Shown: positions 23,070-25,145 of the stretch, piece by piece
Layout of the letters: every line of letters begins with the position of its first letter
Numbering within the stretch: the first letter of the stretch is position 1
NCBI GenBank assembly: GCA_022510815.1
Contig: JAFLST010000011.1
Coordinates: forward strand, 4,713 to 68,712
Origin: Christensenellaceae bacterium
GTDB lineage: Bacteria > Bacillota > Clostridia > Christensenellales > Aristaeellaceae
Length of the DNA: 64,000 bases
Direction: 5' to 3'
Translations under genes and position numbers: made by a program
Notes under the pieces: generated by a model
What the model saw: the letters and a program-made list of their open reading frames with translations, nothing else
The model's database searches: none
What the model was told of the DNA's origin: nothing

Positions 23070-25145
23070 TCACTCAAAGGTCTTCGGCACGGTGACGCAG
23101 GCCTCCTCACGGGTCGGAGCATTGCGCAGCAGCAGCTCCCGGTCGAAGGAGGGCGCGGGCACGTCGTCCCGCAGCACGTTTTCCGTAGGAATGACATGGG
23201 CGGTCATGGGAACATCGGCGGTATCCACCTGCTGGAGCTGCTGGGCAAAGGCGAGTATCGTGTTCAGCTCCGCGCCCATGCTCTCCTCCTCTTCCTCGGT
23301 CAGCGACAGCTTCGCCAGCTCCGCCACCTGCTTTACGGCGATGGCCGGACGCTTCTTCTCGGCCTTGGTCTCGGCCACACCCGCGCTGACGCCCAGCTGC
23401 AGCACCTCGAGCTGCTCCGCGTCCACGAAGTCCGGGGCGTTCGTCATCAGGTCGGAGGCGTCGCGCACCTTGGGGAAGGCAATCACATCGCGCAGGCTGT
23501 CCGCGCCGAGGAGCAGCATCACCAGCCTGTCGAGGCCAAAGGCAAAGCCACCGTGGGGCGGCGTGCCATATTTGAACGCGTCAATCAGGAAGCCGAAGCG
23601 CTTGCGGGCGCTATCCTCGGTGAAGCCCAGAGCCTTGAACATCAGCGCCTGTACATCGCTGCGGTGGATTCGGATGGAGCCGCTGCCCAGCTCCACGCCG
23701 TTCAAGACCACGTCATAGGCCTGCGAGCGCACCCGGCCCGGATCGGTGAGCAGGTACGGCAGGTCTTCCTCATAGGGCATGGTGAAGGGATGGTGCATCG
23801 CCAGATAGCGCCCTTCCTCCTCCGACCACTCGAACTGCGGGAAATCCGTCACGAAGCAGAAGCGGTAGTCGTCCTTGCGGCGCAGGCCCAGCATATCGCC
23901 GACCTCCAGCCGCAGCCCGCAGAGCGTCCGGCAGACGACCTCGTATCTGTCCGCGCAGAAGAGGATAAAGTCGCCTTCCTCGGCGTCGAGCTGGCGAAGC
24001 AGCTCCTTCCACTGCTGCTTGGTGAAGTATTTCTGCAGAATGGAATTGATCTCGCCGCTCTCGTGAATCAGAATCCACGCCATGCCCTTCGCGCCGTAGC
24101 CCAGCGCGTGGTCGGTGAGGGTCTCGATGATGGTGCGGGTAAACTTTTCCGCGCAGCCCTTGCAGTTGAGCGCCCGCACCTTGCCGCCCGCGTCGGCCAC
24201 CTTGCGGAACACCGAGAAGGAGCACGCCGCCGCGAGCTCTGTCACGTCGCGGATCGGGATGCCGAAGCGCAGATCGGGCTTGTCGCAGCCGTAGGCGTCC
24301 ATCGCCTCCTGCCATGTGAGGCGCGGGAAAGCATAGCCGATCTCCTCCCCCATCACCTGCCGGAAGATGTGCTTGAACAGCCTTTCAAGGTGGTGCAGGA
24401 TGTCCTCCTGATCGACGAAGGACAGCTCCATGTCCACCTGCGTGAACTCCGGCTGGCGGTCGGCTCGCAGGTCCTCGTCCCGGAAGCACCGCGCCACCTG
24501 ATAGTACCGGTCGACGCCGCCGACCATCAGGAGCTGCTTGAAGATTTGCGGGCTCTGAGGCAGCGCGTAGAAGGTGCCGGGATGCACGCGGCTGGGCACG
24601 AGGTAGTCCCGCGCGCCCTCCGGGGTCGACTTGCAGAGCATGGGCGTCTCGACGTTCACAAAGCCCTCGCCGTTCAGGAACTGCTCCGCGGCGAACTGCA
24701 CCTCATGCCGGAACCTGAGCGCCCTTTGCAGCGCGGGACGGCGCAGGTCAAGGTAGCGGTACTTGAGCCGCAGCTCCTCGCGAACCTTCGCGTCCTCATC
24801 CATGGAGAAGGGCAGCGGCCGGGCCTCGGAGAGCACCGTCAGCTCCCGGGCCACCAGTTCCACCTCGCCTGTCAGGATGCGGGGGTTATAGGTCTCCTCG
24901 CTGCGGTGGCGTATCTCGCCCGACACCCTCACCACGCTCTGCAGTCGAGCGGCCTCCGCAGCATGGAAGCTCTCCTCCGGCAGGTACTGCAAATCGCAGA
25001 CCACCTGCGCCACGCCCTCCCTGTCCTTCAGGTCGAGAAAGATCACGCCGCCCATGTCGCGCTTGACCTGCACCCAGCCGCACAGCACCGCCTGCTGACC
25101 CATGTGCTCCCTGCGGATAGCTCCGCAATAGTGCGTCCGCATCAT
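23070..25145 (-). CDS. aspS: aspartate--tRNA ligase with a C-terminal GatC domain fused in frame
   Basis: 692 aa from ATG after AAGGAGG. The first ~590 aa is a bacterial class II AspRS. A ~20-aa Ala/Lys linker then leads to 88 aa matching GatC (VAELAKLSLTEEEEESMGAELNTILAFAQQLQQVDTADVPMT...). No separate gatC ORF exists. Confidence 0.9.
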   Translation of the reverse strand: MMRTHYCGAIRREHMGQQAVLCGWVQVKRDMGGVIFLDLKDREGVAQVVCDLQYLPEESFHAAEAARLQSVVRVSGEIRHRSEETYNPRILTGEVELVARELTVLSEARPLPFSMDEDAKVREELRLKYRYLDLRRPALQRALRFRHEVQFAAEQFLNGEGFVNVETPMLCKSTPEGARDYLVPSRVHPGTFYALPQSPQIFKQLLMVGGVDRYYQVARCFRDEDLRADRQPEFTQVDMELSFVDQEDILHHLERLFKHIFRQVMGEEIGYAFPRLTWQEAMDAYGCDKPDLRFGIPIRDVTELAAACSFSVFRKVADAGGKVRALNCKGCAEKFTRTIIETLTDHALGYGAKGMAWILIHESGEINSILQKYFTKQQWKELLRQLDAEEGDFILFCADRYEVVCRTLCGLRLEVGDMLGLRRKDDYRFCFVTDFPQFEWSEEEGRYLAMHHPFTMPYEEDLPYLLTDPGRVRSQAYDVVLNGVELGSGSIRIHRSDVQALMFKALGFTEDSARKRFGFLIDAFKYGTPPHGGFAFGLDRLVMLLLGADSLRDVIAFPKVRDASDLMTNAPDFVDAEQLEVLQLGVSAGVAETKAEKKRPAIAVKQVAELAKLSLTEEEEESMGAELNTILAFAQQLQQVDTADVPMTAHVIPTENVLRDDVPAPSFDRELLLRNAPTREEACVTVPKTFE

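What the first reader, a model, noticed from the sequence alone, without database searches (positions are those of the whole stretch)
23070..23420. AspRS and GatC are fused into one polypeptide: a covalently wired transamidosome component
The ORF upstream of gatA-gatB is 692 aa. After a complete bacterial-type AspRS, which normally ends near ...FVDAEQLEVLQLGV, the frame continues through about 20 Ala/Lys-rich residues. It then runs into 88 residues with the GatC signature: VAELAKLSLTEEEEESMGAELNTILAFAQQLQQVDTADVPMTAHV...LRDDVP. No free-standing gatC exists in the operon. Non-discriminating AspRS, GatCAB and tRNA-Asn are known to assemble non-covalently into a transamidosome in Thermus thermophilus. 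A natural AspRS-GatC fusion would fix the stoichiometry and channel Asp-tRNA(Asn). I do not know whether this fusion has been described.
Basis: partly seen in the sequence, partly recalled or inferred. Interest (0 to 1): 0.6.

Follow-up and report, generated by a model that had tools for sequence, protein, structure and literature searches.

The report
AspRS-GatC fusion in asparagine-tRNA operon
This gut-type Clostridia genome really does join aspartyl-tRNA synthetase to the small GatC subunit of the tRNA amidotransferase in one protein, which probably forms a permanently tethered back-up machine for making Asn-tRNA; curated databases already list the layout, but I found no paper on it.

Summary
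One open frame (window 23070-25145, minus strand, 691 aa) holds a complete bacterial-type AspRS, a disordered linker of about 15 residues, and a full GatC.

- **Not an artefact.** More than 100 distinct proteins from independent assemblies, across several Clostridia orders, keep the same in-frame layout. Their connecting span stays at 21-32 residues.
- **Context.** It is the only GatC found in this 95%-complete genome. It heads an operon of promoter, T-box leader with an AAC (Asn) specifier, aspS::gatC, gatA and gatB. GatA keeps its full catalytic triad here, unlike the "dead GatA" cases this scan noted on other DNA. The genome also has AsnRS, GlnRS, AsnA and a second AspRS, so this is a dedicated auxiliary route.
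- **Separate GatC unlikely.** No conserved internal start codon or ribosome-binding site would yield a separate full-length GatC.
- **Already catalogued.** NCBIfam NF009460 (PRK12820, [quoted passage not shown]) describes the layout for a clade found in the phylum of a "delta proteobacterium" MAG. The window protein scores well under that model's cut-off. This scan has already recorded AspRS-GatC fusions in at least 62 other genomes.
- **Not shown.** I found no paper on the natural fusion. Non-discriminating activity and substrate channelling are inferred only.

Verdict: a new member of a known kind, of moderate interest.

The parts
25478..25506 (-). Sigma-70-like promoter (TTGACA, 17 nt, TG-TATGAT) in front of the leader
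   Evidence: 11 of 12 hexamer matches with an extended -10 TG. Shuffled sequence gives a mean of 0.8 sites.
25196..25461 (-). T-box leader. The specifier codon AAC (Asn) lies at 25367-25369 and the T-box sequence GGGTGGTACCGCG at 25222-25234.
   Evidence: RF00230, 82.9 bits, E 2.4e-17, full model 1-219, but under the gathering score of 93; a GAA-N-AAC-A motif is conserved in 16 of the 21 fusion leaders aligned (window plus 20 loci from other genomes); coordinates.
25181..25212 (-). Intrinsic terminator of the T-box leader (13-bp stem followed by a T run)
   Evidence: It aligns with the terminators of related leaders.
23391..25145 (-). AspRS part of the fusion (residues 1-585): OB anticodon-binding domain, class II core, GAD insertion
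   Evidence: NF001750 819 bits, TIGR00459 746.5 bits; 608 bits to T. thermophilus AspRS and 584 bits to P. aeruginosa ND-AspRS 4WJ3_M; pLDDT is mostly above 90.
23346..23390 (-). Flexible linker (residues 586-600, VSAGVAETKAEKKRP)
   Evidence: pLDDT below 50 for 586-600; the connecting span is 21-32 aa (median 26) in 96 of 97 distinct sequences, rich in K/A/E/G and not conserved in sequence.
23073..23339 (-). GatC part of the fusion (residues 603-691); stop codon at 23070-23072
   Evidence: PF02686 68.2 bits, TIGR00135 78 bits, positions 5-93 of 93. Invariant GatC columns across 63 fusions. It is the only GatC match in the genome.
21610..23055 (-). gatA (481 aa), catalytically intact
   Evidence: Amidase 543 bits; 566 bits to A. 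aeolicus GatA and 553 bits to S. aureus GatA. K79, S154 and S178 are all present. Shine-Dalgarno site AAAGGAGG at -14.4 kcal/mol.
20165..21613 (-). gatB (482 aa); its start overlaps the gatA stop (GTGATG)
   Evidence: GatB_N 407.8 bits and GatB_Yqey 102 bits. Searches show the overlap.

Best explanation
The gene encodes one 77-kDa polypeptide: a bacterial-type aspartyl-tRNA synthetase whose C-terminus continues through a flexible tether of about 15 residues into a complete GatC.

GatC is the belt subunit that GatA needs to fold and to bind GatB, and this is the only GatC in the genome. Every active GatCAB in the cell should therefore hang from an AspRS subunit. Because AspRS is a dimer, the expected particle is (AspRS-GatC)2-GatA2-GatB2.

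The proposed cycle has three steps:
1. The AspRS moiety, inferred to accept tRNA(Asn), makes Asp-tRNA(Asn).
2. The tethered, glutamine-using GatCAB converts it to Asn-tRNA(Asn) before it can escape into translation.
3. The operon is transcribed past its leader terminator only when uncharged tRNA(Asn) binds the T-box (specifier AAC).

The system would then be an inducible, dedicated back-up to AsnRS and AsnA when asparagine is short.

Shown: the fused frame, its conservation, the intact domains and catalytic residues, the sole-GatC status, the T-box and its specifier, and the redundancy with direct pathways.

Inferred: non-discriminating charging, an uncleaved protein in vivo, complex stoichiometry, channelling, and the physiological trigger.
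For: - **Fused frame with complete AspRS and GatC models**.
- **Conservation.** 1696 database proteins match the C-terminal region. The top 120 all carry both Pfam domains, and most are about 690 aa. Full-length fusions occur in Oscillospiraceae, Christensenellales, Ca. Limiplasma, Feifaniaceae, Tissierellia and Clostridiaceae MAGs. They also occur in 9-10 of 24 genomes of the same genus and in two other families of the order.
- **Linker behaviour.** Linker sequence varies while length is held, and the GatC and AspRS columns are invariant.
- **Structure model.** AlphaFold gives a confident AspRS, a disordered 586-600, and GatC helices without a core, as expected for a belt subunit.
- **Sole GatC in a 95%-complete genome**.
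- **No separate GatC start.** No conserved in-frame start with a Shine-Dalgarno site lies at the GatC boundary. The window has Ile (ATC) where some close relatives have Met.
- **Partners intact.** GatA keeps its triad, and GatB has both domains.
- **Regulation.** A T-box with a conserved AAC specifier stands before 16 of the 21 fusion genes examined, with a promoter and terminator. No T-box lies within about 1.5 kb of the second aspS, asnS or asnA.
- **Direct routes present.** GlnRS, AsnRS, AsnA and a second AspRS are present here. GlnRS and AsnRS are present in 5 of 5 fusion-bearing relatives. GatCAB is therefore free to be dedicated to Asn.
- **tRNA(Asn) in fusion-bearing relatives has U1-A72 and G73**, the GatCAB identity elements given in PMC2330236.
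- **Published background.** Bacterial-type transamidosomes are weak and dynamic because of the GAD domain (PMC3367201), which gives a rationale for a tether. GatF shows that a GatC-like belt tolerates an N-terminal extension (PMC4027206).
Against:
- Non-discriminating charging cannot be read from the sequence with confidence.
- tRNA(Asn) is not assembled in this genome.
- An ATG at residue 623 has a strong Shine-Dalgarno-like stretch made of Glu codons (-12.3 kcal/mol). It could give an N-terminally truncated GatC.
- Whether a tether of about 15-25 residues spans the distance between the AspRS C-terminus and the GatC N-terminus in the known complex (4WJ3) was not measured.
- Relatives in the same genus manage with a free gatC, so the tether is not indispensable.
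- The T-box scores under Rfam's gathering threshold (82.9 against 93).
Confidence: 0.7

Rival explanations
1. The ORF is fused, but the cell still makes a separate GatC. This would happen by internal translation initiation in or after the linker, or by proteolytic cleavage of the exposed linker. The working enzymes would then be an ordinary AspRS and an ordinary GatCAB.
For: In-frame GTG codons lie at residues 590 and 607, and an ATG at 623 has a Shine-Dalgarno-like run. Some close relatives keep a Met right at the GatC boundary. The linker is disordered and so accessible to proteases. A related species carries a free gatC that seems to derive from the fusion.
Against: The candidate starts that would give a full GatC have weak ribosome-binding sites (-1.7 to -3.0 kcal/mol, against -11 to -14 for the real starts). 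No start or Shine-Dalgarno site is conserved at that place across 25 fusion genes, and the window has lost the boundary Met. The frame and the linker length have been kept over divergence down to about 50% identity, which would be unnecessary if the halves were made apart. Initiation at M623 would remove the first conserved GatC helix.
Confidence: 0.15
2. The fusion is a tolerated, largely neutral product of stop-codon loss between neighbouring aspS and gatC genes. The protein is one chain, but tethering gives no channelling benefit, and the AspRS may even be a discriminating enzyme.
For: aspS next to gatCAB is a known operon layout in Clostridia (Saad et al. 2012, as cited in PMC4206432). The distribution is patchy within the genus and reversible. 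The fusion is rare in a class-wide sample: 6 fused among the 150 GatC matches listed, with 132 more matches not shown.
Against: All 25 Clostridia fusion AspRS domains form one well-supported clade that spans several orders (SH-aLRT 99). The frame has therefore been maintained for a long time. Linker length is constrained. The Asn-specifier T-box travels with the fusion. An AspRS that could not charge tRNA(Asn) would make an Asn-sensing leader and a dedicated GatCAB pointless in a genome that has GlnRS.
Confidence: 0.12
3. Assembly or sequencing artefact: a missed stop codon or frameshift joins two separate genes.
For: The genome is a draft of 77 contigs, and read-level data could not be consulted.
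Against: The same uninterrupted frame is found in many independent assemblies from different studies and taxa, including complete single-contig genomes. The curated model NF009460 exists for the architecture.
Confidence: 0.01

Closest known systems
NCBIfam NF009460 (PRK12820): bifunctional aspartyl-tRNA synthetase/aspartyl/glutamyl-tRNA amidotransferase subunit C
   Same: The domain order is the same: a bacterial-type AspRS with GAD, a linker, then a C-terminal GatC in one chain. The model aligns to residues 5-665 of the window protein.
   Different: The window protein scores 622.9 bits against a cut-off of 1379. Eight other Clostridia fusions score 590-673. The model's own clade lies in the phylum of a 'delta proteobacterium' MAG: 10 of 301 genomes score 875-1370 bits. 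That clade is only about 40% identical to the window protein. NCBI names the Clostridia versions just 'aspartate--tRNA ligase'.
Clostridium acetobutylicum T-box-controlled aspS plus gatCAB operon (Saad et al. 2012 JBC; 2013 PNAS). Known to me from memory and from its citation in PMC4206432; the papers themselves were not held.
   Same: A tRNA(Asn)-responsive T-box in front of an extra AspRS and a GatCAB, in a Clostridia genome that also has AsnRS and an asparagine synthetase. It is a redundant, inducible tRNA-dependent Asn route.
   Different: As far as I recall, aspS and gatC are separate genes there; here they are one frame. The overlapping GAA/AAC reading of the specifier loop reported there was not tested here.
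Non-covalent bacterial Asn-transamidosome (P. aeruginosa 4WJ3; H. pylori, PMC3367201)
   Same: The parts are the same: a bacterial-type AspRS with GAD domain (584 bits to 4WJ3 chain M), GatA (515 bits to 4WJ3 chain A), GatB, GatC, and tRNA(Asn) with U1-A72.
   Different: Those complexes are held together by the tRNA and are dynamic. Here AspRS and GatC are covalently joined. Here the pathway is auxiliary, with AsnRS and GlnRS present; in H. pylori it is the only route.
Yeast mitochondrial GatF (PMC4027206) and the M. smegmatis gatC-gatA fusion mutant (PMC7541841)
   Same: Both are precedents for GatC-like belts that carry extra polypeptide: an N-terminal domain in GatF and a C-terminal fusion to GatA in the mycobacterial mutant.
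   Different: Neither joins the amidotransferase to the synthetase that makes its substrate.

Membership tests
NCBIfam NF009460 / PRK12820 (bifunctional AspRS/GatC) | AspRS and GatC in one polypeptide, in that order | tested here: met
NCBIfam NF009460 / PRK12820 (bifunctional AspRS/GatC) | Whole-protein score at or above the curated cut-off (1379 bits) | tested here: not met
   622.9 bits. The architecture is the same, but the protein is not a member of that equivalog clade.
Bacterial-type aspartate--tRNA ligase (TIGR00459 / NF001750) | Score above the curated cut-off, with OB domain, class II core and GAD insertion | tested here: met
   746.5 bits (cut-off 373.85) and 819 bits (cut-off 443). 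One search gives the Pfam domains.
GatC (TIGR00135 / PF02686) | Score above the curated cut-off over the full model | tested here: met
   78 bits (cut-off 47.1), positions 5-93 of 93; 68.2 bits (cut-off 23).
Asn-transamidosome (ND-AspRS + GatCAB + tRNA-Asn) | AspRS aspartylates tRNA(Asn), that is, it is non-discriminating | not testable with these tools
   Inferred only from context: the Asn T-box, the fused GatC, and the presence of GlnRS.
Asn-transamidosome (ND-AspRS + GatCAB + tRNA-Asn) | GatA with the Ser-cisSer-Lys triad and GatB with catalytic and YqeY-like domains | tested here: met
Asn-transamidosome (ND-AspRS + GatCAB + tRNA-Asn) | tRNA(Asn) with the U1-A72 pair recognised by bacterial GatCAB | tested here: inconclusive
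   Met in relatives G022 and G032. tRNA-Asn is not assembled in the window's own genome.
Asn-transamidosome (ND-AspRS + GatCAB + tRNA-Asn) | Physical complex of synthetase and amidotransferase | not testable with these tools
   Implied by the covalent link plus GatC's role in GatA/GatB assembly (PMC2330236).
T-box leader (RF00230) | Score at or above the Rfam gathering threshold | tested here: not met
   82.9 bits against 93; E 2.4e-17; the full-length model is matched.
T-box leader (RF00230) | Specifier loop codon, T-box sequence UGGN bulge, and terminator/antiterminator | tested here: met
   The AAC specifier is conserved in 16 of 21 related leaders.

The most novel reading that the evidence does not exclude
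The tether may be what lets a mischarging, non-discriminating AspRS coexist safely with AsnRS and a housekeeping AspRS. On this reading, an obligate (AspRS-GatC)2-GatA2-GatB2 particle works as a self-contained two-step asparaginyl-tRNA synthetase. It never releases Asp-tRNA(Asn), and it is switched on by uncharged tRNA(Asn). I found no experimental study of this natural solution to the fidelity problem of indirect aminoacylation.
Probability: 0.45. Interest if true: 0.6.

Novelty: new member of a known kind. Interest (0 to 1): 0.4.

Why it matters
Transamidosomes are the textbook example of substrate channelling in translation. The bacterial-type complexes studied so far are weak and transient. 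A natural covalent version offers three things:

- a stable particle for structural work;
- a direct test of how much tethering buys in fidelity and rate, by comparing fused and split constructs;
- an explanation of how bacteria keep a mischarging synthetase as an inducible asparagine back-up.

There is also a practical point. NCBI names the Clostridia versions only "aspartate--tRNA ligase". Pipelines will therefore score gatC as missing, and the GatCAB pathway as incomplete, in many gut Clostridia genomes.

Tried and rejected
- **Papers.** Five searches found nothing on a natural AspRS-GatC fusion. The key papers were not held: Saad 2012 and 2013, Sheppard & Soll 2008 JMB, and Suzuki 2015.
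- **"Dead GatA".** Earlier scan notes led me to test this, and I rejected it for this window. The triad is intact here and in 26 of the 28 related fusion loci examined. It is degenerate only in the two Tissierellia loci.
- **Independent origin of the Clostridia and NF009460 fusions.** This is not supported as a firm claim. The two are about 40% identical and form separate clades. However, an AU test does not reject a tree that holds all fused AspRS together (p 0.93; the constrained tree even scored higher). Long branches make this uncertain either way.
- **Reading non-discrimination from anticodon-domain residues.** I abandoned this because I could not verify the published determinants for bacterial-type enzymes.
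- **T-boxes elsewhere.** I looked within about 1.5 kb of the second aspS, asnS and asnA and found none.
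Full report
**What is there**

On the minus strand, an ORF ends at 23070. From the ATG at 25145 it encodes 691 residues. That ATG is preceded by AAGGAGG.
- Pfam finds the OB anticodon-binding domain (20-105), the class II core (123-560, 393.8 bits) with the bacterial GAD insertion (313-408), and GatC (615-686, 68.2 bits against a cut-off of 23).
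- NCBIfam places aspS_bact on residues 1-584 and gatC (TIGR00135) on 603-691. Both are well over their curated cut-offs.
- The AlphaFold model (63-sequence alignment, mean pLDDT 79) gives a confident AspRS and a disordered 586-600. It also gives two GatC helices followed by extended, low-confidence chain. That is the expected picture for a belt subunit that folds only on GatA and GatB.

**The operon**

- A near-consensus promoter lies at 25478-25506.
- A T-box leader follows at 25196-25461 (RF00230, E 2.4e-17, 82.9 bits, under the gathering score of 93).
- Its terminator lies at 25181-25212.
- The fusion gene comes next. gatA starts 14 nt after the fusion's stop, behind a strong Shine-Dalgarno site. 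gatB overlaps the gatA stop.
- The specifier loop reads GAA-GG-AAC-A, so the specifier codon is AAC, asparagine.

**Is it real?**

Conservation answers the question instead.
- A database search with the C-terminal 152 residues returned 1696 proteins. The best 120 all carry both the synthetase and the GatC Pfam domains, and most are 685-700 aa. Identity in that region falls to about 50%.
- Full-length matches occur in MAGs and isolates labelled Oscillospiraceae, Christensenellales, Candidatus Limiplasma, Feifaniaceae, Tissierellia/Tissierellaceae and Clostridiaceae.
- They also occur in 9-10 of 24 genomes of the window's genus and in two other families of its order, one of them a single-contig genome.
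- Across 97 distinct sequences, the span between the last AspRS helix and the first GatC helix varies freely in sequence. Its length stays at 21-32 residues (median 26), apart from one row where the motif search failed, and it is rich in Lys, Ala, Glu and Gly.
- Many AspRS and GatC columns are invariant.

An artefact is excluded, and the frame is under selection.

**One protein or two?**

I scored every in-frame ATG, GTG and TTG between residues 560 and 640 for pairing with the anti-Shine-Dalgarno sequence.
- The two GTGs that could give a whole GatC (V590, V607) score -3.0 and -1.7 kcal/mol. The three real starts score -11 to -14.
- In 25 fusion genes, no start codon or Shine-Dalgarno site is conserved at the boundary. 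Some close relatives have a Met just before the GatC helix, with weak sites, whereas the window has Ile (ATC) there.
- An ATG at residue 623 has a strong Shine-Dalgarno-like run. That run is simply the Glu codons of the conserved TEEEEES segment, and initiation there would remove the first GatC helix.

Separate initiation is therefore unlikely but not excluded. Cleavage of the linker cannot be judged from sequence.

**Genomic setting**

- The genome is 2.74 Mb in 77 contigs and 95% complete. It has a single GatC match, the fusion itself.
- It also encodes a second bacterial-type AspRS only 40% identical to the fused one, an AsnRS, a LysRS, adjacent GlnRS and GluRS genes, and AsnA. No AsnB was found.
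- Both direct routes to Asn-tRNA and Gln-tRNA therefore exist. GatCAB is not needed for glutamine and can be dedicated to asparagine.
- Five of five fusion-bearing relatives checked also have GlnRS and AsnRS.
- tRNA-Asn is not assembled in this genome. In relatives that carry the fusion it has U1-A72 and G73. These are the elements that bacterial GatCAB recognises (PMC2330236).
- No T-box lies within about 1.5 kb of the second aspS, asnS or asnA.
- The Asn specifier is not peculiar to this window. A T-box with the motif GAA-N-AAC-A stands in front of 16 of the 21 fusion genes aligned (the window plus 20 from other genomes).

**GatA**

Earlier notes of this scan report AspRS-GatC fusions in at least 62 other genomes, often next to a GatA that has lost its catalytic residues. 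I tested that here.
- The window's GatA aligns end to end with the A. aeolicus and S. aureus enzymes (566 and 553 bits). It keeps Lys79, Ser154 and Ser178.
- Twenty-six of the 28 related fusion loci examined are likewise intact. Only the two Tissierellia loci are degenerate.

This operon is therefore the ordinary, glutamine-using kind.

**How it most likely works**

GatC is needed for GatA to fold and to bind GatB (PMC2330236). With the only GatC fused to AspRS, each GatCAB should be attached to an AspRS subunit. This would give (AspRS-GatC)2-GatA2-GatB2.

Bacterial-type Asn-transamidosomes are dynamic, and the H. pylori study attributes this to the GAD domain (PMC3367201). A covalent tether would raise the local concentration of the amidotransferase at the site where Asp-tRNA(Asn) is made. 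That would limit escape of the mischarged species.

The T-box would restrict expression to times when tRNA(Asn) is uncharged. The result is an inducible route from aspartate and glutamine to Asn-tRNA(Asn), much as described for Clostridium acetobutylicum. There aspS and gatCAB lie behind a tRNA(Asn) T-box (Saad et al. 2012, known to me from memory and from PMC4206432).

The non-discriminating activity of this AspRS, the intact chain in vivo and the channelling are inferences.

**What is known**

- NCBIfam already holds NF009460 (PRK12820), [quoted passage not shown]. The window protein aligns to it over residues 5-665 but scores 622.9 bits against a cut-off of 1379. Eight other Clostridia fusions score 590-673.
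- The model's own clade turned up in the phylum of a "delta proteobacterium" MAG. Ten of 301 genomes gave full-length matches of 875-1370 bits. Those proteins are about 40% identical to the window's.
- In a tree of the AspRS domain, the 25 Clostridia fusions form one clade (SH-aLRT 99), apart from the free AspRS of Lachnospiraceae, Bacilli and Negativicutes. The other fusions form a second, long-branched clade.
- An AU test does not reject joining the two (p 0.93). I therefore cannot say whether the fusion arose once or twice.
- NCBI names the Clostridia proteins only "aspartate--tRNA ligase".
- I found no paper that describes the natural fusion.

**Prevalence**

In an even sample of 400 genomes of the class, 275 have GatC. 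Among the 150 matches listed, only six lie in frames of 545 aa or more. A further 132 matches were not shown. The fusion is therefore a minority arrangement.

Within the genus it is patchy. Species without it carry gatC-gatA-gatB at the same place, next to the same 5'-nucleotidase-like gene.

**Verdict**

This is a real, conserved AspRS-GatC fusion in a coherent, Asn-regulated operon. It is a new member (the Clostridia clade) of an architecture that curated databases already recognise and that this scan has met repeatedly. As far as I could find, it has not been studied experimentally. Interest is moderate.

Noticed in passing
L103:3130-3561 (genome G021, same genus): The free-standing gatC of this species looks derived from the fusion. 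It is preceded by a sequence that aligns with the window's T-box terminator and Shine-Dalgarno site. It then opens with about 11 codons resembling the 5' end of aspS (MSPTQNFSEIRQ against MKRTHYCGAIRK; 22 of 35 bases identical by my own count). It runs straight into the GatC part, which is 72-85% identical at the DNA level. This looks like secondary loss of the AspRS body, and of most of the T-box, by deletion.
   Followed up: partly
L033:5606-6913 and L035:5605-6897 (Tissierellia): In these two fusion operons GatA has lost Lys79 and the GGSSGGS motif, while GatB is conserved. This is the 'dead GatA' variant that earlier scan notes describe. It is absent from the window and from 26 other loci.
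   Followed up: partly
G000:C34:79154-80932 (second aspS of the window's genome): The AspRS shared by all genomes of the genus is only 40% identical to the fused one and sits on a very long branch. The fused AspRS is 51-55% identical to the sole AspRS of other Bacillota. It is therefore not obvious which of the two is the 'original' enzyme of this lineage.
   Followed up: partly
G144:C83 with G144:C42, and G112:C25 with G112:C33 (same class, family f55): These genomes hold both a GatC inside a long frame (703 and 545 aa) and a free GatC of 126 aa. Fused and free copies can therefore coexist.
   Followed up: no
Proteins P0075, P0095, P0098, P0104, P0112: NCBI names these 691-697-aa fusion proteins plainly 'aspartate--tRNA ligase', so the GatC half goes unannotated in the Clostridia clade.
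   Followed up: no
window 25540-25752 (-) and 26315-27973 (-): Upstream of the operon lie a 70-aa helix-turn-helix-like ORF and a 552-aa secreted 5'-nucleotidase-like gene. The latter marks the same locus in relatives that have a free gatC.
   Followed up: no
G000:C2:3490-6173 and G000:C67:5989-6726: GlnRS and GluRS genes are adjacent on one contig. A third, truncated GluRS-like gene (open frame of 330 aa) resembles GluQRS.
   Followed up: no
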